NCBI RefSeq assembly: GCF_006345805.1
Contig: NC_043000.1
Span: forward strand, 64,046,001-64,110,000
DNA from: Octopus sinensis
Taxonomy: Eukaryota
Direction: 5' to 3'
DNA: 64,000 nucleotides
The notes under the pieces are model-generated. The model was not told the DNA's origin and did no database searches. It worked only from the letters and a program-made list of their open reading frames with translations. Positions 1,464 through 62,800 of this stretch are shown one piece after another. A program made the position numbers and the translations under genes. Every line of letters starts with the position of its first letter. The first letter of the stretch is position 1.

Positions 1464-1755
1464 CTTTATTTGTGTATCAAGGCTACCATTGGTTTTATGT
1501 TAAGGAATACATCAACAATTATCAAGCCTATCCACATGAAACATTCTTTTGTCTCCATCATAGAAAGTTGCAATAAAATCATGTGGAAATTTCAGTAAAC
1601 AAAGACATTTTCATATGATTTTATTGTGACTTTCTGTGACTTTTTGTGTTTAAATCCACAATGGAAATGAACACAGATGTCCCATGTGATGGGTTTGATA
1701 ATTGTTGAGGCATTCCTCAGCATGAAATCTATGACAGCCTTAATACTGAAATAAA
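1464..1755. repeat. Nested imperfect palindrome with degenerate hammerhead-like architecture in both outer arms
   Basis: Outer arms about 1464-1560 and 1660-1755, inner arms about 1562-1592 and 1605-1635; lies between (TA/TG)n and (CA)n tracts. Confidence 0.7.
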
Positions 1756-1784
1756 TAAATAAATAAATACATGCATACATACAT

Positions 1785-1854
<70 letters not shown>

Positions 1855-1997
1855 TATTTATTGAAGCTGTAAAAGATCTTCACAAGCTGTTACTCAGAAT
1901 TTCATGTTACTGTTTGTTGGACAGTTGTGATGATACTAAATAAATAAAAATTGTGTGGGCATATGTAACATAATATAATATAACAATGTAGTTGTTT

Positions 1998-2260
1998 CAA
2001 TTCAACAAATAAGCAATTGAATTTGAATGAGTGACTAATTTCAAGACATAACAGTCTAGTTAGGCTGCCAGTAGGGATTAATCATAACGGTGGAATAAAC
2101 AATAATTAATAATTGAATTTTTCTGTTAACTTTTATTTGCTTTTGTACAAAGTTTTTTTTTGCTTTAATTATTAATTTATTGTTTATTCCGTAGCCTAGC
2201 CACACTGTTATGTTTTGGAATCAGTCACTCAGGCAAATTCAGTTGCTTATTCATTGAATA
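1998..2260. repeat. Imperfect inverted repeat (foldback/MITE-like)
   Basis: aataagcaattgaatttgaatgagtgactaatttcaagacataacagt..taggct pairs with agcctagccacactgttatgttttggaatcagtcactcaggcaaattcagttgcttatt; inner arms ggaataaacaataattaataatt / aattattaatttattgtttattcc. Confidence 0.7.
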
Positions 2261-2464
2261 ATGTTATAATAATTATGTTATATAATGTGTACCCACATAA
2301 TTATTTAGTTTCGTCACAACTGTTTGAAAAACAGTAACATGATACTCTGAGTAACAGCTTGAGAAGGTTTTTTTTTTCAGCTTTAATAAATAGCATATTA
2401 CTCTACTTTTGGTATTTGAATATTTTCCACATTGTATTGCATTTATGTTTACATGTGTGTGTGT

Positions 2465-2646
2465 GCGTGTGATGTAAAAAGCACTCAGTCCACTCTGCTG
2501 GGTGGTTAGTGTTAGGAAGGGTACCAAGCTGTAAAGATCCTACTAAAACAGACAAAGAAATCTGATGCAGGTTCCAGCCTGGCTGGTTCCTGACAAACTG
2601 CCCAACCCATGCCAGCACAGAAGGCAGATATTAAATGATGATGATA
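2465..2646 (+). mobile_element. RTE-type 3' end fragment with (GAT)n tail
   Basis: gttaggaagggtaccaagctgta...aacccatgccagca...ttaaatgatgatgat, matching other RTE 3' ends in the window. Confidence 0.75.
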
Positions 2647-2666
2647 TATTTTTACATCCTTCTATA

Positions 2667-2908
2667 TGTTGGATATACAGATTTCATGAAGTGGGGATAG
2701 ACACAAGTGTCTTCAAACGATGTACTTCAAATTACTCCACCAAACACAATATTCCAATAAATACAAACTCTCAACAATCTCTATGACTTCCAAAAACTCT
2801 CAATGACTCCTACTACTTCTCTTCTCAACCAATACGCTACTTTTTATAAGAGTTTGACTAGTCCATACTTCCAATCCCACAAGGGTGTCAATGATTCTCG
2901 CCACAACA
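2667..2908 (-). mobile_element. 3' LTR of Ty3/gypsy element
   Basis: Bounded by TGTTG...CAACA; the minus-strand polypurine tract aaaagggggaga (2909-2920) abuts it on the internal side. Confidence 0.75.
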
Positions 2909-5215
2909 TCTCCCCCTTTTCAGATTGACTTCTGTTGGAAGTTAATATTATTATTATATTTATTTTTTTCTTTCACCACAGCTTCCTTTTTGAGATTTTC
3001 TTCCTAGAGAAGTTTAATATTTTTTTCCATTTAAGCACTACTACCAACCATTCTGTTTGTTTCATCTTTCTTGTGCTGCTACACCTAGATTCAACTTCTT
3101 GTGGCATTGGAACGTCAAAGCTGTCATAGAGCACATCCATGGGTATCTCTTTTCTTTTTCCACATATCTATTTTTAGATGGTTTAAATGTCTTTTGTGTT
3201 CCCATTATCATATACGTCATTTTGCTTAATCTTTTTGTTACTCCTGTGTCTTCTCAACCTTCTCTTCCATTTTTGTATATATTTTGAAATACAAGCAGAC
3301 GTTAAACGATGATGATGATGACCTTGTTACTGATATTAAAATACTTTGTCATATTTTTAGTGTTTCCCCAATTTGTTTTTCCTACTGGCAACAGCTTTTA
3401 AAATATTGACTTTATTTTTTGAGCAAACATTAGTTCCACAGGCGACTTGCCTGAACAAGTGTTTGGTGTTATCCTATAAACCCTCGAGACTTGTGTCAAT
3501 GCTATGTCATTGACCAGCTCATTTCTTGATTTTTTTTAATGTTCTTTTAAAAGTATCCACAAACCATTATGCTTGCCTGTTTGATCTTGGGTGATATGGT
3601 GGAGTAGAGATGTGTTCAATTGTGTACATTTTGCAAAAATTTTTAAATGCATACACCATAAACTCTATACCATTATCAGATACTATGGTGTCTGGGACAC
3701 TATATCTTGCAAAGAGTTTATGAAGAAAATTTATTGTTACTACATCTACATATTTCCAACCACTTAGAATAACTATCTATTACAATCAGGTAGTATGTGC
3801 CATTTACTAGTCCAGCAAAATCTGTATGAAGCCTGGTCCATGGACTATCAGTTTTAAGCCATGGTTGAAATCTTACTGGTGGTGACTTGGCTGCAAGGGC
3901 ACAACCTCTGCAGTATTTCACTGAATTTTCAATGTCATGGTCCTTTGTAAGCCAATATATGTAACTTCTGATAAGTGGTTTCATTCTCAAAATCCTTGGG
4001 TGACCAATATGAAAATCCTTTAATAAATGCATTTGTAGTGTTGCCAGAACTACAACTCTTTGTACATACATCAACACATTATCACACAGTGAGAAATGGT
4101 TCACATTTGTGTTACAGATATTTTTATTTTCTTTGGCCATCAATGTTTCTTTCATTTTTATAATGAATTTATCATTCTCCGACTTTGATTTTATGTCTGG
4201 TAATGTAACTAGCAGTTCACAAATGATGTTACACAGAACATTTTTAATTTCATTTTTCACTTGCAAAGCGGCAATCACAGTCTCTTCAAATGGTTCTGCA
4301 TTTTTTAAAATCAGTCTTGATAGACAATTTGCATGGCCTAATTTCTTGGATGGTATATACTCCAATTTGAAATCGTAGTTTAATAATATCGTAGCCTAAC
4401 ATTGTAACCTATTAGCAATATAAGTAGGAATTCCTTTTTTCAACCCAAATATTGATAATAGTCTGTAGCTGGAAACTTCTACCGTGCAAAGATCTGAGAA
4501 TTTTTTTTCACAGCAAAAATGATCACTAGAGCTTTTTTTTTCATGTTGACTATAATTTTTCTCTGCTCATATCAAAGAACATGAGGCATAAACCACCATC
4601 TTCATGTTACCATCTTTATATTTATGTAGCATTACTGCTCCTATACCATACTCAGAAGTGTCTGAAGCTACAACAATCTCTACTGCAGAATTGACAAATC
4701 AGATATTAATATTTTTTTTTATTTTGTCAAACACCTTTTGACAATTTTCTGTTCAATTCCATTTCATATCTTTTTTCAGCAAATTATTCAGTGAAGCCCT
4801 AACCTTAGGCATATTTGGAAATTAATTTTGGTAATAATTTGCCAGTCCTAAAAATGCTTGTATGGTTGCTATATTAATCGGAAGAAGCATATTTTTAATT
4901 GCATCTGCCCTCGACAGATCAGGTCATCATCCATTTCTATCAATAATTTGTCCTAAATATCTTATTTCCAGTAAAAAAAAATTCACGCTTTTCTCAAAGT
5001 AAAGCTATAATCCATAATTTTTTCAAATACATATTTTATGTGCTCAACTTGTTGATCCCTGGATTTGCTTTTACTGAATATATCATCCATATATGGAATT
5101 GCAAATTCACAGTCCACTAACATTGCATCCATTATCTGTTGAAAAATCACTGGTGCGACTTTTAAACCTAATGGTAACCCTTTGTACTTATACAGACCAT
5201 TATGCATGTTATCTG
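2909..5215 (-). mobile_element. Degenerate Ty3/gypsy pol (RT, RNase H, integrase), 5'-truncated
   Basis: ORF 4983-5207 HNGLYKYKGLPLGLKVAPVIFQQIMD...YMDDI (RT); ORF 3718-4365 GHANCLSRL, HIGHP..CRGC zinc-binding region, PWTRLHTDFAG..YYLIVIDSYSKW (integrase). Many stops and frameshifts; ends at a (TATC)n tract. Confidence 0.92.
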
Positions 5216-5218
5216 TTG

Positions 5219-5278
<60 letters not shown>

Positions 5279-5287
5279 CACACACAC

Positions 5288-5660
5288 ATATCATCCTCAT
5301 CATCATCGTTTAATGTCTGGCATGGGTGGGACAGTTTGACAGGAACTGACCAGGTAGAAGCCTGCACTAGACTTCTATGTCTGTTTTGGCAGGGCTCTTA
5401 CGGCTGGATGCCCTTCCTAATACCAACCACCTAGCAGAGTTGACTGAGTGCTCTTTTCATGGCACAAACACAGGTGAGGTCAGTTTTGGCAAGGTTTTTA
5501 CTGTTGGATGCCCTTCCAAATGCCAACCACTTTACAGTGTGGACTGGATGTTTTTTAAGTGGCACTTGTACTGACAGGGTCTCCAAGTAATTTGCAAAAC
5601 AAAAATCTTTTGAGAAGGGAGGAAGCATTGGAGGTGGTAATCTTGTGTCAGATTATGAAA
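5288..5660 (-). mobile_element. Non-autonomous RTE-tailed retroelement
   Basis: (CAT)n tail, duplicated ggatgcccttcc..ccaaccac motif; colinear with 58555-58930 and 27605-27865. Confidence 0.75.
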
Positions 5661-6344
5661 GGTTATACATACATACATACATGTATATTATTTATGTGTA
5701 TGTGTAAGTGTATGTACATACATTCATAGACAGTATATACCTATCACTATTGGTAATGTGTACTTCATAAAGACCATAGTTTTTGGATACATAAGTGCAT
5801 GTAAAAAATCACTGAATATCTTGACTTTAAATTTAAAAAAATATAAAAAATTTTAATTTTCCACAATACCTAACAGATGAAAGTACATAAAAAATCAATA
5901 GAGCTAAAGAACGAAATAAATGAATTGGATGTAGTTTTATATGTTAAGAGTTTATTGACTGCCATCAGCATGTGCAAAAAAAAATAAAAGAAATCTTATA
6001 TTTCTATTGTATTTTGGGTTTTCTTTTTTTAATATTGTAAAGTAGATGTTTATTTCTTTCATTCTTTTTCTATTTGTGCATTACCCTGCAGCAATTGAGT
6101 GCATTTTCAGCTTGTCTGTTGACTTGCACAAACTCACTAGAAATAGATCAACATCCATTTCTATGTACATGCTCTCTTCAAAAGTTCTAAAAATAGCATC
6201 AAGTCCTTTAACCATTTTACTGCCGAAAGTAGATATATCCACTTAAAATTTCATTCCCTTATCTTCAGAAATCAGTTTTATATACCAATCTATCTTTTGT
6301 TGGGGAATGTCATGTTTGAAACCATTTTTTGTGGAGGGCATGGC

Positions 6345-6514
6345 TCATAAGCACAAGAGTAGCTTATGTATAGTAAGAAGCTCACTTCCCAACCACATGG
6401 TTCTGGGTTCAGTCCCACTGCATGGCACCTTGGGCAAGTGTCTTCTATAATGGCCTCGGGCTAACCAAAGTCTTGTGAGTGGATTTGATAGATGGAAACT
6501 GAAAGAAGCCTGTC

Positions 6515-6548
<34 letters not shown>

Positions 6549-6770: not shown

Positions 6771-6995
6771 TTGTACAGATGCAAGCATGGGTATGTAGGG
6801 AAAATAGGTGCAAGCATGGCTATGTGTTAAGAAGTTTGCTTCCCAACCATATGGTTCCAGGATCAGTCCCACTGCATGGCAACTTGGGCTAGTGTGTTCT
6901 GCTATAGCCCCAAGCTGACCACAAAGCCTTGTGAGAGGATAGCTGGCAACTGAAAGAAGCCCATTGTGTGTGTGTGTGTCTGTGTATTCATTTAT

Positions 6996-7133
6996 TAAAG
7001 CTGCAAAATTGTCACAAAAACTATTACTCAGAGTTTCGTGCTCCCGTTTGTTGGATAGTTTTCACCACAGCTGTCCAGCGATGGGAACATGAAACTCTGA
7101 GTAATAGTTTCTGTGGAAATTTTGCAGCTTTAA
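6996..7133. repeat. Palindrome made of two inverted degenerate hammerhead-like motifs (Penelope pLTR-like)
   Basis: aaagctgcaaaattgtcacaaaaactattactcagagtttc pairs with gaaactctgagtaatagtttctgtggaaattttgcagcttt; a single arm of the same family lies at about 1860-1926. Confidence 0.8.
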
Positions 7134-7407
7134 TCAAAGTATTTTACTCTGCCTTTGGTATTTGAGTACTATTTTTTATTTCAATGACATCTACAACAGC
7201 AATGACAGCATCTTCATCAATGGCGATGGCCATAATAACAACAGCATCTTTACCAAAACCGGCAGTGGTAGCATCAACACCATCACCACCTCCAATGACG
7301 CCAACACCAGCAACGCTAGCACCAACAGTGGCAGTGACACCAACACCAACAGACACACCACTGCCAACACCCAACCACAGAGAGACGTCAGCTGTTCCGG
7401 GAACTGA

Positions 7408-7700
7408 TTCAAACAGCACCTCTCCAACCACAGATTCTCCTTCAAGATACCGGAAAGGAGATTCATCACATCATTAGCCAGCCATGTATGGCAGCTGATA
7501 GATGATAGGATTCTATACACAATATCATGGAGAATCCTAGAAAATCCAGGCCGCTACATTAACAGGACCAATCACTGTAAATTATGCATAGTGAAACAGG
7601 CGAGGACTACCTCAACCCAGGCAACATCCTGAACTCCAGAATGGAGGTCTTCGAATTGTGCTTACATTTCAGGAAATTCCTGCTAACATATTGGAACCCA
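7408..7700 (+). pseudogene. C-terminal GIY-YIG endonuclease remnant of a Penelope-like element
   Basis: Manual translation FKQHLSNHRFSFKIPERRFITSLASHVWQLIDDRILYTISWRILENPGRYINRTNHCKLCIVK, then after a frameshift ILNSRMEVFELCLHFRKFLL; fits the PLE pattern FKxRxxNHxxSF..LSxHxW..IxWxIL..CxLC..LNxRxE..CxH. Confidence 0.8.
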
Positions 7701-8079
7701 TGGGATAACAGGGTTATCGGTGATTGATTGCCAAAGGATACAATCCCCTTTGTTGACATTGGTGATTGATGATAGCTATGGGGAGACGATCTCCTTTGTT
7801 GACGTTGAGTAATGGGGTCCTTTCCTCCTCCATATTTTAGAGAGGCCAGTTGCTAGAGAGGCTTTGACCAACAGATTTTTGGGATCTGATGATATGCCAT
7901 AAAGCTAAGTCTTTTATGGACATGAAACCTAAGGCAATCTCATAAACTGGCCTTATCTAACTTTAATATATACTGCTCTGTAACTTAAAGAGTGTTTCTT
8001 TTTTCAAATTTATGTTTACAGATGATCCATATATATATATATGTGTGTGTGTGCGTGTTACACACACACACACTTATGG

Positions 8080-9512: not shown

Positions 9513-9717
9513 AAGATCAACTTTACCTTTTACCCCCTCGGGTTCAATAAAATATGCAACAGTTTAACACTGGGGTCAGTGTAATCAATTTACTCCACCC
9601 ACGAAATTGCTGGCTTCATGCCAAAATTTGAAATTATTATTACTATCATCATCATCATCATCATCCTTATCATCATTGTTGTTATTATTATTATTATTGT
9701 TGTTATTGTTATTGTTG

Positions 9718-10320: not shown

Positions 10321-10323
<3 letters not shown>

Positions 10324-10471
10324 TTTTTTGCATAATGAGATAAAAAGCCCAAGGCTGTATAGATATTAGAGCACTTATAGATAGAAGATCTTACAGCTGT
10401 AAGACCTTCTATCTATAAGTGCTCTAATATCTATACAGCCTTGGTTTTTTTATCTCATTACGCAAAAAATT
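10321..10471. repeat. Near-perfect 150-bp loopless palindrome centred on cttacagctgtaag
   Basis: gaattttttgcataatgagataaaaagcccaaggctgtatagatattagagcacttatagatagaag mirrored with a few mismatches. Confidence 0.92.
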
Positions 10472-10613
10472 CTTATATACACACGTTGACATAGAACCAA
10501 TGTTGAACCCTTTATTCGCAATATTACCAAATCTGGAACTTAACTATGGTCTGTCTATAGCACTTATTCAGCATTACCTGACACCTTTGGGTCTCAATGA
10601 CACCATTTTCTCT

Positions 10614-11645: not shown

Positions 11646-13120
11646 CATGTGGTTGCAAAACAAGCTTCTTAACCTCACAACCAAACTGCTTTGTACTGAA
11701 AATATGGCCAAGTGTTAAACTAATGCCTTCAACTCTGTCAGTTGTGGAGCTAGAACAAGTTTGCCTTATATTGGAAATTGAACCCAGTACTAAACTGATG
11801 CCTTTAGCTCTAGCAGTATGCAATGCAACCGATGACTTTAACACTGTCAGAATGCAATAGTGAAGCTGGGTGAGTTCTGGCTTATACTGGTAATGTGACT
11901 GAATACTCAACTGATGTCTAGCTCTATCAACCATGCAGCTTTAAAGTTTTGCTATGCATATTTTGTTTTGAAGTGTTTTACAGTTTTATATACCTGTCAA
12001 AGTAATAAATAAATTGATATTGTTGATAAAGTAATTTCCGTTTGCTATTCTTATTTTCTACATTACATTACATGCCTCAGTAAGGTCTGTATTATGTTAA
12101 AAGCATTCAGATTTATTGATCACCTAATCCTGTAGACATTCAGCCCATCTAAAAATGCTCAATATATTAATCAAACAATCACGCTCAGTAGATAAATCAG
12201 AGACTTAATCAACCAACATGAAAATTATTTGAAGGAGAGAGAAGGAAGAAAGCAGTAACTCAGGAGTTTCTGCTCCAACAAGCTGAGAGATTTACAGCTT
12301 TGTTTTAAATAAGGTAAATCTGAACAAGTTCTCTTTTGTTTAAAATAGGTCTGTTTTTATCTATTTTAAAGAAAAGTAAACAATAAAATTCGAAATAAAA
12401 TAATTGATATATTTACAATGTTGATGAGCATTAAATATCAAAATGCTTCTACAGATCAATGAAAGAGGGAAGTTCTTGGAAAAGCTGTTAATCCAAGCTA
12501 AGTTGCAGGAAATAAAGTTTTTAGAATAAATTGATTTTCCTTTTTTAACAAAGCCACAGATTGAAGTACCTTTTTCAAATGCCTAATTAGGCATTTAGTT
12601 TCAAGTTAAAATCAATATCTATTGGCTAGGTAATAATGATAAATTAGTACAAGTTTAGGAGTTGTCTGACACATAATCAGTGGGATGTATTGATTTGTAA
12701 ATGTACTTTCTTTTATGTTGATCTCTTCTGGTAATTCTTTCTAGTAGTTTCCATTAAAATAATTCTCCTAAATGGAATTATTAAAAGTGATTTTGCATTG
12801 AACGAATTCAAAATCAAATCACATCCAATGTTAAGTTCTCATTTCATGCTACATGATAGTCCCATACAATTTGTATGTGATGAATACAGTAATCATACAG
12901 AACAAAAGAACTTTAAAATGATTGCCACAAATTTCAAAGAGTTAATATATTCACAACATGTCCTACAAAATATAAAATCTGTCAGAAAAACCTAAAGGAA
13001 ATATTGTAAAATTCCAATGTAGCTTATTTATTATTTTAACTTTACATGTGTGCATGTGTGTGTGTATACATATACATATATACACACACACATACATACA
13101 TACACACATATATGTATATA

Positions 13121-14282
13121 CAGGGGTTGGACAAAATAATGGAAACACCTATTATCATAGCATCATAATTTTGAAATATCTATAAAACTGTCAAAAGCGT
13201 GTTTATTTTTATGTTTTTTTTTTTTATTTATTAATAGTATTGCTTAATATGTTTCGCTAAAATTGCTGTTTCTTTTCAGATATCATCAGAAAAAGGTAAT
13301 TAAAATTCATTGAAATGACAGATCTATCTGACTTTCAAAGAGGTCAAATTGCTGGTGCTCGTATGGCAGGCACTAGTGTAACGAAAACAGCCAAAATGTT
13401 TGGTATATCAAGAAGTGCTATCTCAAAAGTAATGACAGCCTTTGAGAAAGAAGGAAAAACCTCTTCATCGAAACAAAACTCTGGAAGAAAACCAAAACTT
13501 TCTGATAGGGACCGTCAAACTTTTACACAAATTGTTAGAAAGGATCACAAAAGTAAAGTGCTCAAAATTACTCCAGAGCTTAATGACCACCTCAGGAACC
13601 CAGTTTCCACAAAAACTGTTCGCATGGGAGGGTTGCAATCAGAAAACCACTACTTTCAAAAATAAACATTGCAAAGTATTTAGAATGGAGTTAAAACCTA
13701 CAGAATTGGTCCCTAGAGCAGTGGGAGAATATTATTTTCTTGGATGAGTCATCTTTACCTTATTTCCAACCACTGGCCAAGTATACATGTGGAAACAGCC
13801 AAAAGAATCATTTGACCCAGACTGCCTTCTTTCAACTGTTAAACATGGAGGAGGATATGTGATGATCTGGGGGGGGCTATATCTTGGAAATCCACCAGCC
13901 CAATGGTTTCCTTTCATGGCAGAATTAATAGTCAAAACTATTTAAGCATTTTATCTGATCAAATTCATCCTATGGTTACAGAAATGTTTCCGGAGGGAAA
14001 TGCAATCTTTCAGGATGATAATGCACCAATTCACACAGCTAAAGTTGTTACTGAATGGCATGAGGAACATTCTAGTGAAGTTGAACATTTCTAGTACATT
14101 TTAGAAAATCAAGTAAGGAATCGATATCCTCCACCATCGCCACTACAAGAACTAGAGACTGTTTTAGATGAAGAATGGACAAAAATTCCTTTGGAAACAA
14201 TTCAAACTTTGTACGAGTGCATAACTCATCAAATTCAAACTTTGAAATTTTAAGGTGTTTCCATTATTTTGTCCAACCCCTG
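13121..14282 (+). mobile_element. Tc1-family DNA transposon, both ends intact, transposase pseudogene
   Basis: Perfect 30-bp TIRs caggggttggacaaaataatggaaacacct / aggtgtttccattattttgtccaacccctg with TA on both sides; DLSDFQRGQI HTH, SGRKPKL, FLDES, VKHGGGYVMIWG, FQDDNAPIH; frameshifted and missing the SPDLNxIE segment. Confidence 0.96.
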
Positions 14283-16010: not shown

Positions 16011-16014
<4 letters not shown>

Positions 16015-16458
16015 CTTACAAAAAAGGGCAAAAGAAAAAAATTTCAATGCCGAATATGCCGAAATAGACTTAATTGTCAATAACCATATAATATCTCACT
16101 CTATAAGAATTTTCAGTCCGATCATACGTGTCTCGAGGTATGCTGTGGAATTTCTATTTTGGATATATTTGGGGTACTTAAGTGTGCTCATGACTTAGTG
16201 TTTACTTCTTCCATGGGTACAAGTAAATATCTCATTTATTTTCTTATCATATTTATTGCTGATGACGAGAAAATTCTAAATGAATTAACTCAGAAATTGG
16301 GACCGATCCGGTAATAACGAAATTTTTTTAGAAATTTCTATCGGCTTGCTTTCAAGACGCGTGCTTATAATGATAAATTATATGGTTATTGACGATTAAG
16401 TCTATTTCAGCATATTTGGCATTGAAATTTTTTTCTTTTGCCCTTGTTTATAAGTTGT
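16011..16458. repeat. (TA)n-embedded element with about 80-bp inverted arms and an internal hammerhead-like motif
   Basis: agggcaaaagaaaaaaatttcaatgccgaatatgccgaaatagacttaattgtcaataaccatataat mirrored at about 16377-16445; ctgatga at 16259-16265 and gaaa at 16292-16295. Confidence 0.8.
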
Positions 16459-16544
16459 TTATAAATTTAACCTTTAAAGGTATTTTTTTAATATGCTGGC
16501 CATTGATAAAATTTTTTTGAAAATGTTATCCTATATTAGATGTG

Positions 16545-20924: not shown

Positions 20925-21600
20925 AACGGCCACGAACGGATGGTGTTTTTATGTGTCACCGGCACGGGGCCAGGCAATGCTGGCAACGGACACGAACGGA
21001 TGGTGCTTTTACGGGGCCAGACAGAGCTGCCAAACGGCCACGAACGGACGGTGCTTTTACGTGTCACCTGCACGGGGGCCAGCCAAGGCTGGCTACGAAC
21101 ACGAACGGATGGTGCTTTTACGTGCCACCGACACGGGGCCAGACAGAGCTGGCAAACGGCCACGAACGGACGGTGCTTTTACGTGTCACCTGCACGGGGG
21201 CCAGCCGAGGCTGGCAACGAACACGAACGGATGGTGCTTTTACGTGCCACGGACACGGGGCCAGACAGAGCTGGCAAACGGCCACGAACGGATGGTGCTT
21301 TTACGTGTCACCGGCACGGGGGCCAGCTGAGGCTGGCAACAGACACGAACGGACGATGCTTTTATGTGCCACCGACACAGGGCCAGACGGAGCTGGCAAA
21401 CGGCCACGAACGGACGGTGCTTTTACGTGTCACCGGCACAGGGCCAGGCGAGGCTGGCAACGAACACGAACGGATGGTGCTTTTACGTGCCACCGACACG
21501 GGGGCCAGACAGAGCTGGCAAACGGCCACGAGCGAATGGTGCTTTTACGTATCACCGACATGGGTGCCAGACGAGGCTGACAGTGGACACGAACAGATGG
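20925..21600. repeat. Minisatellite of about 12 x 60-bp units in alternating A/B order, in the RTE 3' UTR
   Basis: A: ggcaaacggccacgaacggacggtgcttttacgtgtcacc..ggccagccgaggct; B: ggcaacgaacacgaacggatggtgcttttacgtgccaccgacacggggccagacagagct. Confidence 0.93.
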
Positions 21601-21647
21601 GTCACTTAACCCCTGCTTTCTGATATATGATTTGATTTTGATTGTTC

Positions 21648-23364
21648 TCACTGGTCTTGCCGGGTCTTCTGACGCACAGCATACTTCCATAGGTCTCGGT
21701 CTCTGGTCATTTCCTTGGTGAGACCTAGAGTTCGAAGGTCGTGCTTCACCACCTCGACCCAGGTTTTCCTGGGTCTACCTCTTCCACAGGTCCCCTCAAC
21801 TGCCAGGGTGTGGCACTTTTTCACACACCTATCTTCATCCATTCTCGCCACATGACCATACCAGCGCAATCGTCTCTCTTGCACACAACATCTGATGCCT
21901 CTTAGGTCCAACTTTTCTCTCAAGGTACTTACACTCTGTCGACTATGAACACTGACATTACACATCCAACGGAGCATACTAGCTTCATTTCTCGCGAGCT
22001 TACGCATGTCCTCAGCAGTCACGGCCCATGTTTCACTGCCATGTAGCATGGCTATTCGTACACATGCATCATACAGTCTGCCTTTTACTCTGAGCGAGAG
22101 GCCTTTAGTCACCGACAGAGGTAAGAGCTCCCTAAACTTTGCCCAGGCTATTCTTACTCTAGCCGTTACACTTTCAGCACACCCACCCCCACTACTGACT
22201 TGGTCACCAAGATAACGGAAGCTATCAACTACTTCTAGTTTTTCCCCCTGGAAAGTGACGGAAGTTGTTTTCTGCAGATTTTCAGAGGTTAATGCTCCCG
22301 AGCATCTGCCACATACAAAAACCATCTTCCTAGTTAGCCTTCCTATGACATTGCTGCACCTCTTATGTGTCCATAGCTTACACTTGGTGCATCTTATAGA
22401 GTTTCTACCTACACCTTTTCTACAGATCGAGCAGGGCCATCTACCTGAAGGCGTTTGTGATTTGTCTACCTTCCTACTTATTACAACTTTGGTTTTAGCA
22501 AGGTTGACTCTAAGGCCCTTCGATTCTAAACCATGCTTCCACACCTGAAACTTCTTCTCCAGTTCTGATAATGACTCAGCAATTAGAGCAAGGTCATCAG
22601 CATAGAGGAGCTCCCAGGGGCATCCTGTCTTGAATTCCTCCGTTATTGCCTGGAGGACTATGATAAATAGGAGGGGGCTGAGGACTGAACCTTGGTGGAC
22701 CCCTACCTCTACCCGGAATTCTTCACTGTACTCATTGCCAACCCTCACCTTACTAGCAGCATCCCTGTACATGGCTTGCACAGCTCTCACTAACCATTCA
22801 TCTATTCCTAGTTTCCTCATTGACCACCAGATGAGGGATCGGGGGACCCTGTCGAAGGCTTTCTCCATGTCAACAAAAGCCAGGTACAGGGGCTTATCTT
22901 TGGCTAGGTATTTCTCCTGCAGCTGCCTTACCAGGAATATAGCATCAGTGGTACTTTTCCCTGGCACGAACCCAAACTGCATCTCATCTAAACTAACTCT
23001 CTCTCTAATTAGTTGGCTTATGACCCTCTCTGTAACCTTCATCACCTGATCCAACAGCTTGATACCTCTGTAATTATTTGTATCTAGGGCATCACTTTTA
23101 CCTTTGTAGCAGTTGACTATTATGCTGCTACACCAGTCATTGGGTATGACTCCTTCATGTATCACCTGATTAACTATACAGGTGACTAGGCTATAGCCGA
23201 CACTACCAGATGTTTTGAGCATCTCTGCAGTGATACCTGATGGGCCTGGGGCTTTCCCTGTCTTCATGCTTCTAATTGCCTTAGCTACCATGGAACTATC
23301 AACCCTGATAGCTGGTCCCTCTGTTGGGTCAACGTTCGGCAGACTCTCTTTATCCCATTCATTT
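21648..23364 (-). mobile_element. RTE-clade LINE, 5'-truncated; uninterrupted 547-aa ORF (21648-23291) with reverse transcriptase and PHD-like finger
   Basis: KAPGPSG, NYRGIKLL, QFGFVPGKST, FVDMEKAFDRV, GVHQGSVLSPLLF, LYADDL, FRYLG, RRLRWYGHV, GRGRPRKTW; no endonuclease domain present. Confidence 0.96.
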
Positions 23365-24044
23365 GCTGCTATAAAAGAGATGCATAGTTATCTAGCCAGA
23401 GGTGAGAGCAAGAGAAGGATGGAGAGAGAGTGATCAGGAATGAGGGCAGAAACAGATGTACTACTATAGAGGAGACACATGGTTACCCAACCAGAGGGAA
23501 GAGCAAAGGAAAACAGAGAGTAGGAGATAGCAAGAGTGCAAGAGAGAGCAGGAGAAAGAGATTATTCATTTTCCATTAAAATTTGAAATAAATATTTTGG
23601 ACCAATTAGGGAACTGCTTCATAATCCCTGAACTTGCTAGAAATAGCAACCAAATTCCTCTTTAAGCTACATTCTACAGTAGTCACTTGCATTCAAGAAT
23701 GACTTAGTTGCAAATATGCTTTTGCTTTTTGTTTTAGGTACCCATGTAGTCACAAACAGACACAGTTACACCTCAGCACTTACGACCCTGCAGAGAATCC
23801 TGGGAATGATAGGTGGGGAGAGTGGGGGTTGCACCAGCCCTGGGCAGGTACTTTATCAATCCTGAAAGGATGAATCCAAAGTTGATCTCAGTAGAATTTG
23901 AATTCAGAGAGTATAGAGCTGGAGAAATTATCACATTGCATTTTTTTCTTTTTTTTTTTTCCTTTTTCTTTTTTGGTAATCTGATAGCCATACCCTGCCA
24001 TCTTAAATATGGAAACTGAATAAAAATGTACTGGATATATTTTT

Positions 24045-27914: not shown

Positions 27915-27939
27915 TGTGTGTGTATATATATGTGACTGC

Positions 27940-28140
27940 ATGTGTATTGTAGGCGATTTTTTTCCTTTGTCTTCTCTTCCTTGGATCTTTCTTTTTCTAT
28001 ATTTCTTATGAAGGGGTCCACTCGAAATGTTAAATCCACCTTCTTTCTTTCCTTTCCTGAGCGTCCAGTACCACTATACTTGTTCGATGTTCTCGCATTG
28101 TTGGGTTTTCTCCTTGTGTTTTCATGTTTGGATTAACTCT
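27940..28140 (+). repeat. Microsatellite-embedded 200-bp repeat with degenerate hammerhead-like motif
   Basis: Colinear with 62610-62800; core here reads cttatgaaggggtccactcgaaatgttaaa; partial third copy at 38385-38480. Confidence 0.8.
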
Positions 28141-30504: not shown

Positions 30505-31033
30505 TATGGTGTAGCATTGTTAGTTGTTGTGTTGCTCAAGTAAATATTAAAATCAAAGGTTTTCTCACCGTAAACATCCCATCTTTAAGCATATTGTATC
30601 AAGGGGTATATTATCCAAAATGTATCTCTCCTTTATAGGCGTGGCTGTGTGGTTGAGAAGCTTGCTTTCTAACCATGTCACATTGGGTTCAGTCTCACTG
30701 TATGGCCCATTGGGCAATTCTGTTTCATTACAGCACTGTGCTGACCTAATCCTTGTGTATTATATAACTGCCATTACTGTATTGATATATGAAATAACAT
30801 ATACAACTCACTTACTATTGTCATACAATAAACAAACAGAAGTTCATGTATGAAATTGATCTTTTTTCTCTTTTTTCTACTTCAATTATTACATGTTTTT
30901 TCCTTATAAAATACACACATACAGGAGTAAATCTATATATATAATAACATTTTGAATGTGGCTTCCAAGAAACAGTAAAAGTAATTACCAGATCAATAAC
31001 AGGTACTACTGCTAGTATATATATATTTTAATA

Positions 31034-31239
31034 GGGAAGCCCAGTTCATGGGATTACATTGGGTTTTCTGTCCATAAAGGGTTTAGTTTTATGGCATGTA
31101 GTCAGACCCCAAAACCTGTTGGCCTAAAACCTCTTCAAAATAGGTCTTAGGCCAACAGGTTTTGGGGTCTGATGATATACTATAAAGCTAAACCCTTTAT
31201 GGACGGAAACCCATGGTAATCCCATAAACTGGCCTTCCC
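31034..31239. repeat. About 205-bp palindrome (two roughly 98-bp arms, 10-nt spacer)
   Basis: gggaag..cagaccccaaaacctgttggcctaaaacct / aggtcttaggccaacaggttttggggtctg..cttccc. Confidence 0.92.
31160..31228 (+). ncRNA. Putative type I hammerhead ribozyme
   Basis: Stem I uuuuggggu/aucccauaaa, core CUGAUGA (31169-31175), stem II cuauaaag/cuuuaugg, GAAA (31206-31209), short stem III CC/GG, GUA site (cut predicted after 31218). Base of stem II is imperfect. Confidence 0.65.
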
Positions 31240-31311
31240 CAGTAAAATATAATTTGCTCTATATCTTAGAGTATGCTTCTTCTCCAGATTTATGTTTTCT
31301 ACAAATGATAT

Positions 31312-32190
31312 CTGTGGTCTGATCAATAAGTATCTGGTCTGTTGTCATAGTAATGAAGCTAAAGTATGAAAAATGAAGTCAGCATAGATTGACCTTAAAC
31401 TCTTCTGTGAATGTGCACTAAGTTTTAACATTCTAACTCACTCCTGCAGTGCTTGGAAGGAAGGTGTGTAGTGTATGATCATCACATTGACCATGACAGA
31501 GGAAGTTGAACAGAGAATCTGCATCAAATTTTGCCAAAAGCTTGCCAATATCTGCTCAGAGTCCTATGCAAAGTTTTTAAAATGTTTTCATCATTCTCGA
31601 CACAATCAAGGAGATTTTGTGCAACTACCTGAGTGTCTTTTTGGTCAGATGAAAGCAGTTTTGGCACAAACTTAACAGACACATGTCTCATACCCAAATC
31701 TTCAGTAATAATGGACTGAACTGAACCATAACTGATCTGCACATCCTCTGATAACTCACAGATGATGATTTGATGATTTCCTCTCACTGCTGCATGCACA
31801 TCTGTGATGTTTTTCTCTGTTCTACTGTTTGGAGGTCTCCTAGAATGTTCATCGATATTGACATTTTTTGGCCATCTTGGAAACATCTGAACCCCTTATA
31901 AACTTGTGTGCAGCTCATACACTCCTCTCCATACACTTTCTGCAACATTGCGTAGGTCTCTGAGCAGGTATCGCCATGACAACTTTCTCTGTCATGATCA
32001 ATGCGACAATCACATGCTACACACCTTCCTTCCAAGCACTGCTGTAAACAGCAGAAGTGAGATAGAACGTTAAAACTTAGTGTGCATGCACAGCAGAGTT
32101 CAGGGTCAATTTTTGCCAAGTAGCTTCACTCTGCATGCTTTAGCTTCGTTACTATGGCAACAGTCAAGATACTTATTGATCAGGTCATGT
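31312..32190. mobile_element. Mariner derivative built from two inverted 5' ends
   Basis: Both ends carry ctgatcaataagtatct..ctgttg(t/c)catagtaa and about 250 bp of shared leader plus transposase start (EQRICIKFCQKL); minus ORF 31524-31886 has SRRPPNS, EDLGMRHVSVKFVPKLL. Confidence 0.88.
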
Positions 32191-32194
32191 ATTA

Positions 32195-38040: not shown

Positions 38041-38481
38041 AACATACATAAATACATACATACATATCAGGAAATTGTAAGGATTTTTTTAGACATTGAC
38101 TGATAAGGAATTAGCTATGAATTTTCTGTTATGTTTTTGTAAAATTTTCCATTTGTGCATTTGTTAAATTTTTGAAAAAAAAAAAAATATATATGCAAAG
38201 GGCTTCTCTCAGTTTCCATCTACCAAATCTACTCACAAGGCTTTGGTCAGTACAAGGTTATAGTGGAAGACACTTGCCCAAGTATCTCACAGTAGGAGCA
38301 AACTTGGAAATGTGATTACAAACATAACTATGTGTTAGTAAACAGGAATATTTCTTCCAGCCTAAAGTTTTCATATTTAAAGGTTTTCTTTCCTGAGTGT
38401 CTGATAATACAGTACTTGTACCATGTCCTTGCATTATTGTTTTTTCTTGTTTGTTCTTCTTTGTTTGGATTCACTACATAG

Positions 38482-44374: not shown

Positions 44375-44510
44375 GTGGTGTTCAATTATAAAAATAAATA
44401 AAAGATACACATTAAGTACAGGACATCACCAACGTGTGAAGAATACATAAACACACAGAGATGAGTCCTGTATTTAATGTGTATTTTTTATTTATAGTGA
44501 TGTGAAACAC
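44375..44510. repeat. Imperfect inverted repeat
   Basis: aaataaaagatacacattaagtacaggacatc pairs with gatgagtcctgtatttaatgtgtatttttattt. Confidence 0.65.
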
Positions 44511-46856: not shown

Positions 46857-46888
<32 letters not shown>

Positions 46889-46894
<6 letters not shown>

Positions 46895-47165
46895 ATTAGG
46901 GCTTAGTAAAATAAATTACTTTGCCACATACTGAACTTGCTAGAAATAGCAGCCAAAAAAAAGTTTTTTTGCCATTTCCACTACTTAAAGAAAATTTCTC
47001 TCAGATAATGTTTACTCAAAATAACTCACGAAGGTATGGAGGTAAAAACAGAAAAATATCACAAGTACAAAGATTATTTGAGAACGTTAACGTTTCTAGA
47101 TTAGCCAAATAAACTCAGCAAGTATGTGGCAAAGTAATTTATTTTACTAAGCCCTAATTATATAA
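46889..47165. repeat. (TA)n-associated element with perfect 44-bp inverted arms
   Basis: tatataattagggcttagtaaaataaattactttgccacatact / agtatgtggcaaagtaatttattttactaagccctaattatata. Confidence 0.9.
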
Positions 47166-47284
47166 TGTAATATTTTGAATTCGCCTTAAATGGTCCTTTT
47201 ACATACTGAATACTTGGTGAAATTGATTAATAACTAATTAATTTTACCCTCAATTGTTGATATATATATATATATATATACCAT

Positions 47285-58554: not shown

Positions 58555-59200
58555 ATCATCATCATTTAACGTCTGCCTTCCATGCTAGCATGGGTGGGAT
58601 GGTTTCACAAGAACCAGTCAGGCCGAAGCCTGCACCAGGCTTCTGTGACTGTTTTGGCAGGAGTTTTACAGCTGGATGCCCTTCCGAACCCCAACCACTC
58701 AGCAGAGTGGACTTAGTGCTTTTTTTGTGGCACAAGCACAGGCAAGATCAGGTTTGGCTAGGTTTTTACAGTTGGATGCCCTTCCAAATACCAACCACTT
58801 TACAGTTTTGACTGGGTGCTTTTAAGTGGCACCTACACTGAGAGGGTCACCAAGTACTTGCAAGACAAAAAAAAACTTTCAAGAGGGGAGGGTCATTGGA
58901 AGAGGTGATCTTGTGTTGGATGAGGAAAAGGTTGTAGTGAGACAGATACAGGTATCTTGCTGCAGAAGAAGTACAAGGTTACCTGGCCGGGGAGAGAAAG
59001 ATCAGGAATGAAGACAGAGGGAAGTGCAGGAGAAGGAGAGAGAGTGGGAAATAGCAGGATAGAGATGGTGGCAAAATACTGGGCATACTCACAAGGAACA
59101 GGGATCAGAATATAAACAGGATAGTTGAGTAAAGGAAGAGAGAGATATAGATGGTGGCAAGTACCAGGGCATACCCTTGAGGTTCAAATGCCATAATATA
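58555..59200 (-). mobile_element. Non-autonomous RTE-tailed retroelement
   Basis: (CAT)n tail, colinear with 5288-5660; the GA-rich part resembles 23365-23560. Confidence 0.78.
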
Positions 59201-59819
59201 AGTGGCAACAAAGAAGCTCCTGGGCAGATAGTCAACATGCTAGAAATAGTAATTAAGAGGACACATTAAATGATATAGGCTTTGATATATAAAAAAAAAT
59301 GCCTTCGACCATGTTTGCCCAACAATGACAATTTAAAGTTAGATGGATTGGTTGTTTATTACCCTATCAAACTTAACTGGCCTGCTAGTACCATTGTCCA
59401 GGAGGTGGCACATTGCTAAATGTGAACAGTTTGTGGAGCCACCAGTGAGAGCTAACAACAGACCTTTTGTTGCAGCAGTTGGGAGTATCATTTGCATCTG
59501 TAACAGTATAATACTACTTCTGGAGTTTCCTCACTTGTGGATGGCTTAATATTGGTGGAGCAGTTTCAAAACTGCATTCACCTATGGAGTTAACTGATGC
59601 TCATTAAGAAATATTGTCCGTGTATAAGAGATGGTGTTTTGGTCTTCTTCAGAATAGGACAAACAAGACCATATCAATAATTCAACCGTATATGCACTAC
59701 TGTATTGAGTCAAACAAGTGGCATTTAACACTGCACCTTGCTCTTTTGTGATATAAGGTTAATGACTGACAGATATATAAATTGATCTGTTCTAATTATT
59801 TAATAAAATGTGTGCTATA

Positions 59820-60292
59820 ATCTGGTGCAAGAGATGGCCCTACTCAGTATGTAGAAAAGGTGTCGGGAGAAAGATATGGACACATAAGAGGTGTAGCAGT
59901 ATCACTGGAAGACTAACAGAGAAAGTAGTCTTTACATGTGGTGAAAGATGTGCAAGTGTATTAAACACCAGGAATGTACAAAAAAAAAAAAATAGATTCC
60001 TTCAAATGTTGTGGGGTATCCATAGAAGTTGTAGATAGTTTCCATTACTTAGGTGACCCAGTTAGTAGTGGTGGAGGTTGTTCCAAAAGCATAGCCACTT
60101 GAATAAGAATAGGCTGGGCAAAGTTCAGAGAGCTGCTACCTCTGTTAGTAAGGAAGGGCATCCAGCTGTAGAAACCATGCCAAATTAGACGTGGAACCCA
60201 GGCAGTTCTCCAGCTGGCCAGCCCCTTGTCAAACTGTCCAACCCATGCCAACATGGAAAATGGATATTAAATGATGATCATGATGATGATGA
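59820..60292 (+). mobile_element. RTE fragment with internal deletion joining the ORF to the 3' UTR
   Basis: RWPYSVCRKGVG..WAKFRELLPLL then aggaagggcatccagc UTR and (GAT)n tail. Confidence 0.85.
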
Positions 60293-60619
60293 AGGGTCGT
60301 TCAAGACTTTAGTGAAATTATTTTCCTTGAGCTTTTGAACCTTACTGTTAAATTAAAAATACCTAAGGTCCTAAGAGGAATCTTTAAACAAGTCAGTTGT
60401 AGTTGCTTCGCACTCAGTTAACTCTTATTGAGGAGCCCTATTATCAAAGTTGCTCCAGCTGTGACTATCACAGATATTTTTTATATTGTAGACTACAAAG
60501 TCCTATAAGTTTTTCTTTATTATCGTTTAAGATAGTAGGTTGTGATTTGATTGGTTGAAGTGAATCCTTCATTAATTGATTAATTATCTTATATATTTAG
60601 ATATGTATTTATGCATGTA

Positions 60620-60673
<54 letters not shown>

Positions 60674-60689
60674 GTATATATGAAGAGCG

Positions 60690-61350
60690 AGAGGGGCGGG
60701 GTTTGCAAAAGTAGGCTAACAGTTACTCCTTTACTCTTTTACTTGTTTCAGTCATTTGACTGTGGCCATGCTGGAGCACCGCCTTTAGTCGAGCAAATCG
60801 ACCCCGGGACTTATTCTTTGTAAGCCCAGTACTTATTCTATCGGTCTCTTTTGCTTTGCAAATGTAGGCTAACAATTGTGACAACTACCTTGAAATTTTG
60901 CACAAGGAGCTGGTGCCTGCAATCCAGGCTATGCCCAATTTTGGCGATGTGTTATTCCAACAGGATGGGGCACCACCATATTATGCAATTCATGCGCATA
61001 ATTTCCTCAGTGAAACATTCCCAAGGAGGTGGATTGGACGACATGGGGGTATTGAATGGCTGCCCCATTCCCCAGACCTAACACCAATGGATTTTTTTTC
61101 TGGGGTATTGTGAAAGAGAAGGTATTCCGGAGAAAGCCATGCACTCTGCCTCTACTACATAGGTTCATTACAGAGGCCTGCCTGGAAATGAACACTGACC
61201 TGGACCTGTGTCATGTGTTTTGCAGTGTGGCTGATAAACTCCAAAAATGTGTCAATGTTCAGGGTGGACATTTTGAGCATATATGGTACTAACGTACAAT
61301 GTTTTTTAAATTACAAAATGTATACAACTATGCCTGCTTTTTGCACCACC

Positions 61351-61353
<3 letters not shown>
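60690..61353 (+). mobile_element. DD41D (rosa-type) Tc1/mariner derivative, internally deleted
   Basis: FQQDGAPP..WIGR..WLPHSPDLTPMDFF with 41 residues between the last two catalytic Asp; right TIR cctgctttttgcaccaccctg-TA. Confidence 0.85.
60722..60854 (-). mobile_element. 5'-truncated SINE A with 20-bp TSD
   Basis: tttgcaaa(a/t)gtaggctaaca at 60702-60721 and 60855-60874. Confidence 0.9.
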
Positions 61354-61396
<43 letters not shown>

Positions 61397-61823
61397 TTAT
61401 GCATGTATGCATCCATCCACCCACCCACCCTCCCATTGGCAAAAATTGACCTTGACCTCTGTTGTGCATGTGCACTAAGTTTTAACATTCTTCCACTGTT
61501 TGCAGCAGTCTAACCCTAACTCTAACCCTAAACCTGATCAAATCATTTCATAGACTGCATGCTGAAGTAGCACCCTTTCCTCTTTGTCTACAGCTGGTAC
61601 ATGTTACCCTCAGACTGGCGACCTGACCCAAATGTTCAACTGAAGCTACCCAAGGATCAGGTAGTGGTGTTTAACTAAATAAACATCCTTCTAGGTGGTT
61701 CATAATTTTTGTTTAAAGATTGTTTTCATGTAATTAATAATTTTTAATTTGAGGAAATCTTTATCTACCTATCTTTCTGTCTTATGTTTGATGATACAAC
61801 AAGAAAATAGAATTCAAAACATT

Positions 61824-61864
<41 letters not shown>

Positions 61865-61872
61865 ATATATAT

Positions 61873-61909
<37 letters not shown>

Positions 61910-61969
61910 GCAGGAGTTGCAGAGTGACTCAAGGGCTGAGAGTTTCATCTATTAGCACTTATATATATA

Positions 61970-62024
<55 letters not shown>

Positions 62025-62254
62025 GAGATATGTTACAAAAAGAAAATATAAAATACACGTGGAAATGTAAGGGTAAAATACGAAAAATCAACGAAAATGC
62101 ACATTGCAAATAAAAAAAGGCTTTTTATGACAGGTAACGACAAACATATACATTTAGATGGACTGAGGTAGTAATAAAAGTCATAAAAGTCATTATTATG
62201 AGATGATTATAAGATGATAATAAAGTAATATATATATATATATATATATAATGT

Positions 62255-62557
62255 GGAGGCGCAATGGCCCAGTGGTTAGGGCAGCGGACTTGCGGTCGTA
62301 GGATCGCGGTTTCGATTCCCAGACCGGGCGTTGTGACTGTTTATTGAGCAAAAACCCCTAAAAGCTCCACGAGGCTCTGGCAGGGGGTGGTGATCCCTGC
62401 TGTACTCTTTCACCACAACTTTCTCTCACTCTTTCTTCTGTTGGCCTGCTCGCTTAGCCAGCGGGGTGGCGTCATTCAAAGGCTAAAACAATGCGAACGC
62501 ATTGTGACCAGTGATGTGTAACAACATCTGATGGTCTTGTCGGTCACGTGATCACGT
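62255..62557 (+). mobile_element. SINE family B inside (TA)n
   Basis: tggcccagtgg A box, ggtttcgattcc B box; near-identical to 9997-10291. Confidence 0.92.
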
Positions 62558-62599
62558 AATATATATATATATATATATATACATATACATTCAAAATGT

Positions 62600-62800
62600 G
62601 ACCGTGTGTGTACCGTTGGCGATTTTTTTCCTCCGTCTTCCCTTCTTTGGATCTTTCCTTTTCTTATGTTCTGACGAAGAGCTCCGCTCGAAATGTTAAA
62701 CCCTCCTTCTTTCCTTCTTTCCTGAGCGTCCAATAATACTATACTTGTTCCATGTCCTCGCGTTGTGTTTTCTCTTTGTGTTTTCATGTTTGGATTAACT
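62600..62800 (+). repeat. (TA)n-embedded 200-bp repeat with minimal hammerhead-like motif (62668-62701)
   Basis: gtt-CTGACGA-a-gagc-tcc-gctc-GAAA-tgtta-aac. Confidence 0.75.

What the first reader, a model, noticed from the sequence alone, without database searches (positions are those of the whole stretch)
1464..62800. Recurrent architecture: unrelated microsatellite-associated palindromes or short repeats with hammerhead layout
At least five mutually dissimilar families (1464-1755, 6996-7133 with 1860-1926, 16011-16458, 31034-31239, 62600-62800 with 27940-28140), plus weaker cases (10321-10471, 46889-47165), share traits: adjacency to (TA)n/(CA)n, no ORF, usually inverted arms, and a stem I-core-stem II-GAAA-short stem III-UH layout. 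Inference: a diverse population of non-autonomous Penelope-derived or retrozyme-like elements that favour microsatellites. The PLE-hammerhead link is known; this density and the double-inverted, ORF-free form may be under-described in cephalopods.
Basis: partly seen in the sequence, partly recalled or inferred. Interest (0 to 1): 0.75.

Follow-up and report, generated by a model that had tools for sequence, protein, structure and literature searches.

The report
Hammerhead-bearing Penelope retrotransposon ends, mirror-paired
The mirror-image repeats beside the TA runs are real and come from seven unrelated repeat families that each carry a hammerhead-shaped, predicted self-cutting RNA motif; four families are cut-off ends of Penelope-type jumping genes and three are protein-free units likely moved by such genes, so these are new examples of known kinds.

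Summary
All seven named repeats are dispersed, mutually unrelated families in G000. Each has a type I hammerhead layout at family level, although most window copies are decayed. They are not DNA MITEs. E1 and E4 lie in sense 3' of a Hydra-type Penelope endonuclease in 16 of 30 and 19 of 25 loci; E2 and W1 do so in one locus each. The window holds such an endonuclease remnant in front of an E4 copy. E3 and W2 are protein-free tandem units (about 470 and 570 nt) and E5 is a fixed 225-nt non-palindromic unit; no coding parent was found. Head-to-head pairs carry one short end and one 'tail' end (W2 16 of 17, E2 19 of 19, E4 17 of 18), the published Penelope signature. Ends abut microsatellites (12 of 13 unbiased arms, against 10% of random sites). 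Hydra elements with hammerheads and (TA)n targets are already reported in Octopus (PMC8557442). This scan found the same kind of thing before on other DNA. Extras: family-wide U4C cores in E2 and W1. Cleavage and expression are untested.

The parts
1464..1755 (.). E1: head-to-head pair of 3' ends of a Hydra-type PLE; U3-A8 hammerhead core on each arm (1695-1701 +, 1525-1519 -), both decayed elsewhere; no tail recognisable in this copy
1855..2453 (.). E2b: long head-to-head E2 unit with tail on the right arm (2392-2453); hammerheads decayed
6991..7178 (.). E2a: head-to-head E2 unit with partial tail on the right; cores decayed; abuts the E4-parent remnant
7179..7700 (+). 5'-truncated, broken Hydra-type GIY-YIG endonuclease remnant with an Asn/Ser/Thr-rich stretch, parent of E4 (best frame 7408-7629)
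7857..8026 (+). E4b: hammerhead-bearing 3' end (core at 7886) and tail of that element, followed by (TA)n
10321..10613 (.). W1: head-to-head unit whose axis is the hammerhead's own palindromic stem III (10393-10400); the 5' half of the ribozyme is absent; 140-nt tail on the right; (TA)n on both sides
16012..16543 (.). E3: short inverted arm (16012-16092) plus 0.95 of a 472-nt protein-free unit with tail, between two (TA)n runs
16253..16314 (+). Best-preserved type I hammerhead in the window (core at 16259)
27930..28137 (+). E5b: decayed copy of E5, 3' end on (TA)n
31022..31302 (.). E4: head-to-head unit; right arm with intact core at 31169 and tail; left arm decayed
38384..38475 (+). E5c: partial old E5 3' end before a (TATG)n run
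46888..47268 (.). W2: minus arm (unit positions 524-755, core lost, short end) joined to plus arm (150-293, tail end) of a young 561-574-nt protein-free unit
62586..62799 (+). E5a: about 225-nt non-palindromic unit with a minimal hammerhead (core at 62671, extra A before stem II, 4-nt palindromic stem III), between TA runs

Best explanation
These repeats are 3' ends (pseudo-LTRs) of Penelope-like retrotransposons and of protein-free units likely copied by them, each family carrying a type I hammerhead motif predicted to cut only as a dimer, and the palindromes likely arise at insertion when two short cDNA copies are joined head to head at a TA run. Shown: family hammerhead layouts; E1, E2, E4 and W1 lie 3' of Hydra-type RT/GIY-YIG remnants; E3 and W2 are head-to-tail protein-free units; two fixed 3' ends per family; inverted pairs take one of each; microsatellite flanks. 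From published work: the PLE enzyme nicks AT-rich DNA on both strands and starts reverse transcription at two adjacent RNA sites, which gives the optional tail (PMC11167929); Hydra elements insert in (TA)n (PMC8557442). Inferred: each cut strand primes one cDNA, one from each start site; both stop early and anneal at microhomology or at a short palindrome such as stem III (W1); E3, W2 and E5 borrow a PLE enzyme in trans. The stubs are likely dead, and in a read-through RNA the two arms would pair and mask the ribozymes.
For: Arms with core, GAAA and UH intact: E1 18 of 29, E2 12 of 39, E3 28 of 35, E4 11 of 35, E5 26 of 31, W2 29 of 38; W1 core 20 of 24. Each family has its own stem letters and a palindromic stem III. 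In E4, 92% of cells pair and one stem III pair swaps C-G for U-A in 11 of 31 rows. Coding link: the E1 motif lies in sense downstream of the endonuclease in 16 of 30 loci including the query (0.004 expected); E4 in 19 of 25 including the window. L203 (E1) and L284 (E2, from the unbiased sample) show inverted arm + truncated RT-thumb/EN + UTR + end + tail; W1 in L325. Hydra marks: CxCX5C linker in E4 parents; CxCX5C, DKT, CxxC and CxH in the related ORF of L200, as defined. E1's stem III equals that of Hydra-1_Obim, and E2's resembles Hydra-2_Amil. Mixed ends: E2 19 of 19, E4 17 of 18, W1 8 of 8; W2 16 of 17, while single W2 copies end long in 6 and short in 5 (my count). Microsatellite: 12 of 13 against 10%.
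Against: No coding parent was found for E3, W2 or E5: none in 30 Hydra-EN, 20 divergent Hydra-EN, 30 Neptune-EN, 30 PF01541 or 25 E4-parent loci. The apparent W2-Neptune link in L202 failed. E2 and W1 links rest on one locus each. Clade assignment rests on motifs, without a tree, and Pfam gave no significant hit on the Hydra pieces. Covariation within E4 is modest (3 pairs with two-sided change, 245 of 500 shuffles as high). None of 9 single motifs folds into the three-way junction at minimum energy, which fits dimer-type motifs but does not support them. Only 1 of 31 unbiased palindromes passes the descriptor. The window E1 copy shows no tail, and L142 (E4) and L190 (W2) break the mixed-end rule. 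No cleavage or expression data.
Confidence: 0.88

Rival explanations
1. Same origin, but the mirror is made by fold-back self-priming of a single cDNA or antisense template rather than by two primings.
For: Arkhipova 2013 proposes self-priming from palindromes at inverted junctions. The W1 axis sits exactly on the palindromic stem III.
Against: The second arm stops at a fixed site that single copies also use as a 3' end (W1 +80, W2 755-762). One locus (L014) joins E5 head to head with a different family, both ending in (TA)n; this is a single case and could be two insertions.
Confidence: 0.25
2. The palindromes are themselves self-propagating non-autonomous elements, amplified as hairpin units by a PLE enzyme.
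For: Top hits to E2, E4 and W1 are palindromes of similar size, and several W1 copies share the same centre.
Against: Top hits are chosen by likeness to a palindromic query. Centres differ between E2 and E4 copies. Unbiased E2 copies range from single arms to arms 2.1 kb apart around an ORF remnant.
Confidence: 0.07
3. Ordinary TA-target DNA MITEs with chance hammerhead-like strings.
For: Inverted ends, TA flanks, no ORF in the named stretches; single-copy descriptor results are weak.
Against: Asymmetric ends, variable centres, single-arm copies and direct links to RT/GIY-YIG remnants. The window's true TIR elements (about 13120-14281 and 31303-32192) look different.
Confidence: 0.02
4. E3 and W2 are satellite-like tandem amplifications of a pLTR (unequal crossing over) rather than RNA-mobilised retrozymes.
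For: W2 has arrays of three or more units (L196) and a related long array (L182). Li 2026 discusses local tandem growth.
Against: Dispersed copies on many contigs carry variable 5' ends, the two fixed 3' ends, inverted arms and TA flanks, which are the marks of PLE insertion.
Confidence: 0.1

Closest known systems
Hydra clade of Penelope-like elements, including Hydra-1_Obim of Octopus bimaculoides (Craig 2021, PMC8557442)
   Same: C-terminal GIY-YIG with CxCX5C linker, 3' hammerhead with palindromic stem III (E1 has the same stem III as Hydra-1_Obim), unpaired bases at the foot of stem II, (TA)n targets.
   Different: Several further families. E1 has a U3-A8 core and E2 and W1 a U4C core; the Hydra rows I saw in File S2 all read CUGA. 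The E4 parent has an Asn/Ser/Thr-rich stretch inside the endonuclease.
Insertion unit of endonuclease-positive PLEs: pLTR + inverted 5'-truncated copy + one-sided tail (PMC8557442 Fig. 2; PMC3846280; PMC11167929)
   Same: Head-to-head arms with a tail on one arm only and two fixed 3' ends.
   Different: Tails here are longer (about 55-65 nt in E1, E2, E4; 75-95 in E3, W2; 140 in W1) than the 30-40 bp described, and both arms are often cut to under 150 nt.
Minimal type I hammerheads of metazoan PLEs (Cervera and de la Pena 2014, PMC4209133)
   Same: Extra base before stem II, palindromic stem III, U3-A8 variant, dual motifs on opposite strands 100-700 bp apart; E5 fits the minimal form.
   Different: Six of the seven families lack a plain G10.1-C11.1 pair directly flanked by the core and have longer stem III palindromes (8-12 nt).
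Animal non-LTR retrozymes (PMC7229834; Li 2026 preprint 10.64898/2026.07.22.740005)
   Same: E3 and W2: protein-free head-to-tail units with one type I hammerhead per unit.
   Different: Copies here are mostly 0.5-1.5 units with PLE-type inverted arms and tails; no RNA, circle or cleavage shown.

Membership tests
Hydra-clade PLE 3' ends (E1, E2, E4, W1) | End lies 3' of an RT + C-terminal GIY-YIG ORF, same strand | tested here: met
   E1 16 of 30, E4 19 of 25, E2 one locus, W1 one locus
Hydra-clade PLE 3' ends (E1, E2, E4, W1) | CxCX5C linker, DKT/RWK motifs, CxxC and CxH around the EN end | tested here: met
   CxCX5C in E4 parents L382 and L393; DKT, KWK, CxCX5C, CxxC, CxH in L200, a related element beside but not joined to E1; read by eye
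Hydra-clade PLE 3' ends (E1, E2, E4, W1) | RT phylogeny groups with reference Hydra families | not tested
   no tree built; reference proteins not loaded
Hydra-clade PLE 3' ends (E1, E2, E4, W1) | Insertion into (TA)n | tested here: met
   12 of 13 unbiased arms (several families) against 10%; some flanks are CA/TG-type
EN+ PLE insertion unit | Inverted 5'-truncated copy, tail on one arm only | tested here: met
   E2 19/19, E4 17/18, W1 8/8; W2 16/17
Type I hammerhead | Core, GAAA, UH and stems I-III in order | tested here: met
   family level; most window copies are decayed
Type I hammerhead | Canonical U4 in the core | tested here: not met
   E2 has C in 17 of 20 arms and W1 in 23 of 23; met in the other five families
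Type I hammerhead | Self-cleavage at H17 | not testable with these tools
   no raw reads listed
Non-LTR retrozyme (E3, W2) | Protein-free head-to-tail units, one hammerhead each | tested here: met
   periods about 465-472 and 561-574 nt; longest stop-free frame 104 and 80 codons
Non-LTR retrozyme (E3, W2) | Two consecutive complete hammerheads in tandem | tested here: inconclusive
   W2 has multi-unit loci (L169, L196), but both cores were not checked; E3 copies seen are under two full units
Non-LTR retrozyme (E3, W2) | Unit-length linear and circular RNA | not testable with these tools
   only contigs of runs guessed to be RNA
Non-LTR retrozyme (E5) | Tandem units | tested here: not met
   no head-to-tail E5 in 30 loci
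DNA MITE | Fixed symmetric terminal inverted repeats | tested here: not met
   asymmetric ends, variable centres, single arms

The most novel reading that the evidence does not exclude
Every mirror insertion is a record of a dimeric Penelope enzyme copying two RNA molecules at once, one from each cut strand of a TA run and each from a different fixed start site. This would explain the long-unexplained inverted-plus-tail structure of PLEs, and it predicts head-to-head chimeras of different families such as L014. The young protein-free W2 and E3 units would be circular-RNA parasites of Hydra elements. The family-wide U4C cores of E2 and W1 would show that the hammerhead is kept as a dimerising or protein-assisted structure more than as a fast ribozyme.
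Probability: 0.3. Interest if true: 0.6.

Novelty: new member of a known kind. Interest (0 to 1): 0.3.

Why it matters
Mainly for annotation and mechanism. Short TA-flanked hairpins in this genome that MITE finders could take for DNA transposons are retroelement ends. The strict one-short-one-long rule in inverted pairs gives a large natural data set for the open question of how Penelope elements build inverted repeats. Porath 2017 found exceptional genomic double-strand potential and hyper-editing in octopus without assigning it to repeats; these hairpins are candidate sources, which I could not test.

Tried and rejected
Rfam: no hammerhead family at E<=10. W2 as the pLTR of a Neptune element (L202): rejected, because none of 29 other Neptune copies carried W2 and most had their own U3-A8 motif. 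E1 in L200 and L201 lies near Hydra ORFs but is separated by other sequence, so these were not counted as links. The 7.4-kb C27 arrays holding E3 are duplicated blocks with LINE remnants and no PLE ORF seen; they inflate E3's row count. No parent for E3, E5 or W2 in 135 endonuclease loci. Pfam gave nothing significant on Hydra pieces. RNA: no RNA holder listed; laying contigs of four runs on W2 showed presence only and similar change spectra in all four, so this is no evidence either way. Editing footprint in genomic copies: no A>G over T>C excess in any of 7 families (p 0.16-1.0); this says nothing about editing of transcripts. Single-motif folding did not give the hammerhead fold. A wider descriptor, set after viewing the data, gave 5 hits in 400 kb against 0-1 in 10 shuffles and did not recover the long-stem candidates I saw by eye in L309 and L311. 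The 2017 paper on short-stem-III dimer hammerheads (recalled) was not held. Preprint supplements were not seen and may list related families; only part 2 of 59 of the Craig supplement was read.
Full report
Setting. The window is G000:C4:64046001-64110000 of a 2.72-Gb animal genome. Names: E1 1464-1755, E2 6996-7133 and 1860-1926, E3 16011-16458, E4 31034-31239, E5 62600-62800 and 27940-28140, W1 10321-10471, W2 46889-47165.

Observation. Six of the seven have inverted arms at the stated places; E5 has none. All are dispersed families with 553-4023 first-look candidates, of which only 40 each were scored. After removing overlaps, 30, 21, 23, 29, 19, 17 and 29 loci remained for E5, E2, E1, E3, E4, W1 and W2. 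No family model hits another at E<=10. Most window elements are longer than stated because one arm carries a tail.

Hammerheads. On single window copies the signal is thin: 1 strict hit (E3; 0 in 30 shuffles, 1 in the reversed window), 2 of 7 palindromes with a relaxed descriptor, and no Rfam hammerhead. Across copies it is plain. Arms with core, GAAA and UH intact number E1 18 of 29, E2 12 of 39, E3 28 of 35, E4 11 of 35, E5 26 of 31 and W2 29 of 38. These arms were picked by a stem III anchor; a few are truncated or off-target, and E3 includes duplicated C27 blocks. Each family pairs its own letters in stems I and II and has a palindromic stem III of 4-12 nt. W1 first seemed to lack the motif. 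A 29-letter pattern found 453 exact places (0 for the reversed control), and 20 of 24 of the loci fetched show the full core. The window's W1 mirror axis is that stem III, so its ribozyme has lost the 5' half. In E4, 92% of cells pair and one stem III pair swaps C-G for U-A in 11 of 31 rows, but only 3 pairs change on both sides. E1 has the U3-A8 core, known from Schistosoma. E2 (17 of 20 arms) and W1 (23 of 23) have C at position 4; U4C is reported to lower activity in vitro while still allowing viroid infectivity. Minimum-energy folds of 9 single motifs do not form the junction.

Controls. In 40 evenly spaced 10-kb stretches the descriptor finds 6 motifs against a mean of 0.5 in 8 shuffles. 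Of 13 family arms there with E<1e-7, 12 have a microsatellite within 30 nt of the 3' end, against 10.1% of random positions. Against the broad claim, only 1 of 31 local inverted repeats in that sample passes on the single copy (0.8 expected), and 12 of 31 touch a microsatellite. A few more look like long-stem hammerheads by eye, which I did not confirm.

Parents. L203 shows a short inverted E1 arm, a 5'-truncated RT-thumb and GIY-YIG remnant, a UTR, the E1 end and a tail. With that endonuclease as query, 16 of 30 loci (query included) carry the E1 motif in sense downstream and 6 carry an inverted copy upstream; chance is 0.004 per locus. The window itself holds a broken endonuclease at about 7180-7700 in front of an E4 copy at 7857-8026. 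Of 25 loci for that protein (window included), 19 carry E4 downstream in sense. E2 shows the same layout in L284 from the unbiased sample, and W1 in L325. The motifs match the Hydra clade as defined by Craig 2021; no tree was built. That paper's supplement lists Hydra-1_Obim from Octopus bimaculoides with (TA)n targets and a hammerhead whose stem III equals E1's.

Protein-free units. W2 is a young (mostly 95-99%) head-to-tail unit of 561-574 nt and E3 one of about 465-472 nt; neither has a stop-free frame over 104 codons. E5 is a 225-nt unit with a fixed 3' end on TA. None of 30 loci extends beyond a common 5' limit, and 1 of 30 (L028) has an inverted partial copy. No coding parent turned up in 135 endonuclease loci. 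W2 in L202 is an insertion into a Neptune element.

Mechanism. Families have two fixed 3' ends, and inverted pairs take one of each: E2 19 of 19, E4 17 of 18, W1 8 of 8. For W2 it is 16 of 17, while single W2 copies end long in 6 and short in 5 (counted by hand; L172 dropped as a repeat of L168, L182 dropped as a flank array). Independent choice would give about half mixed pairs. Frangieh 2024 showed that a purified PLE protein cuts both strands of AT-rich DNA and starts reverse transcription at two adjacent RNA sites that define the tail, and that hammerhead cleavage is not needed for this in vitro. I infer that each cut strand primes one cDNA from one of the two sites and that the two truncated copies join head to head; an earlier scan note (e1-9979056) proposed this reading, which I reuse. 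Fold-back self-priming remains the main rival. L014, where E5 is joined head to head with a different family, favours two templates but is a single case.

Comparison. The inverted 5'-truncated copy with a one-sided tail is the standard PLE unit. Dual opposite-strand hammerheads were noted in 2014, and animal retrozymes as PLE derivatives in 2020 and 2026. Six literature searches gave no account of these stubs in cephalopods or of family-wide U4C cores in PLEs; the library lacks most subscription papers. The 2026 Octopus vulgaris repeat annotation counts recently active Penelope-like families and does not mention hammerheads.

What I saw of each paper: PMC4209133 parts 1-2 of 4; PMC11167929 parts 1-2 of 4; the Li preprint parts 1-3 of 5; PMC8557442 passages, section 11 and supplement part 2 of 59; PMC3846280, PMC7229834, PMC5625713, PMC13282606 and PMC3088659 passages only. 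The 2017 short-stem-III dimer paper is recalled and was not seen.

Verdict. The scan has reported the same kind on other DNA. New members of known kinds; interest 0.3.

Noticed in passing
L014:1271-1708 (G000:C11:12028563-12031770): E5 joined head to head, with no TA between, to an arm of a different hammerhead-bearing family; both outer ends run into (TA)n. It may record two different RNAs used in one insertion.
   Followed up: partly
window 7179-7400; L382, L387, L388, L391: The E4-parent endonuclease carries a long Asn/Ser/Thr-rich stretch before the YIG motif, apparently between the two halves of GIY-YIG. This recalls the Asn-rich inserts of rotifer Penelope ORFs, though at a different position.
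   Followed up: partly
L199:2213-7348 (G000:C19:48726500-48736499): The upstream part of an E1 arm has grown into a 139-bp tandem array of about 36 units between the two inverted arms.
   Followed up: no
L235-L263; L355-L378: Two other abundant PLE families have their own 3' hammerheads with U3-A8 cores; some PF01541 hits lie in frames of 780-883 codons and may be near-intact.
   Followed up: no
L288, L300, L357: Some E5-type copies outside the top hits have the U4C core as well.
   Followed up: no
window 13120-14281 and 31303-32192: Two ordinary TIR DNA-transposon remnants with symmetric ends; the Tc1/mariner label is from recall. The second abuts the E4 tail.
   Followed up: partly
window 20925-23387: A 61/122-bp tandem array next to a minus-strand LINE RT frame of 579 codons (RVT_1 E 8e-32, weak PHD-like hit).
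   Followed up: no
window 3721-4395: LTR-retrotransposon remnant with an integrase zinc-binding domain.
   Followed up: no
window 44394-44495, 868-903, 62947-62982: Further small palindromes not assigned to any of the seven families.
   Followed up: no
L197-L198 (G000:C27:9008500-9028499): A 7.4-kb block holding an E3 head-to-head unit is repeated in tandem at 96-99% identity.
   Followed up: partly
L309:2570-2833, L311:7366-7742, L313:9277: A further hammerhead-like family with a long stem II, twice as TA-flanked palindromes, in the unbiased sample.
   Followed up: partly
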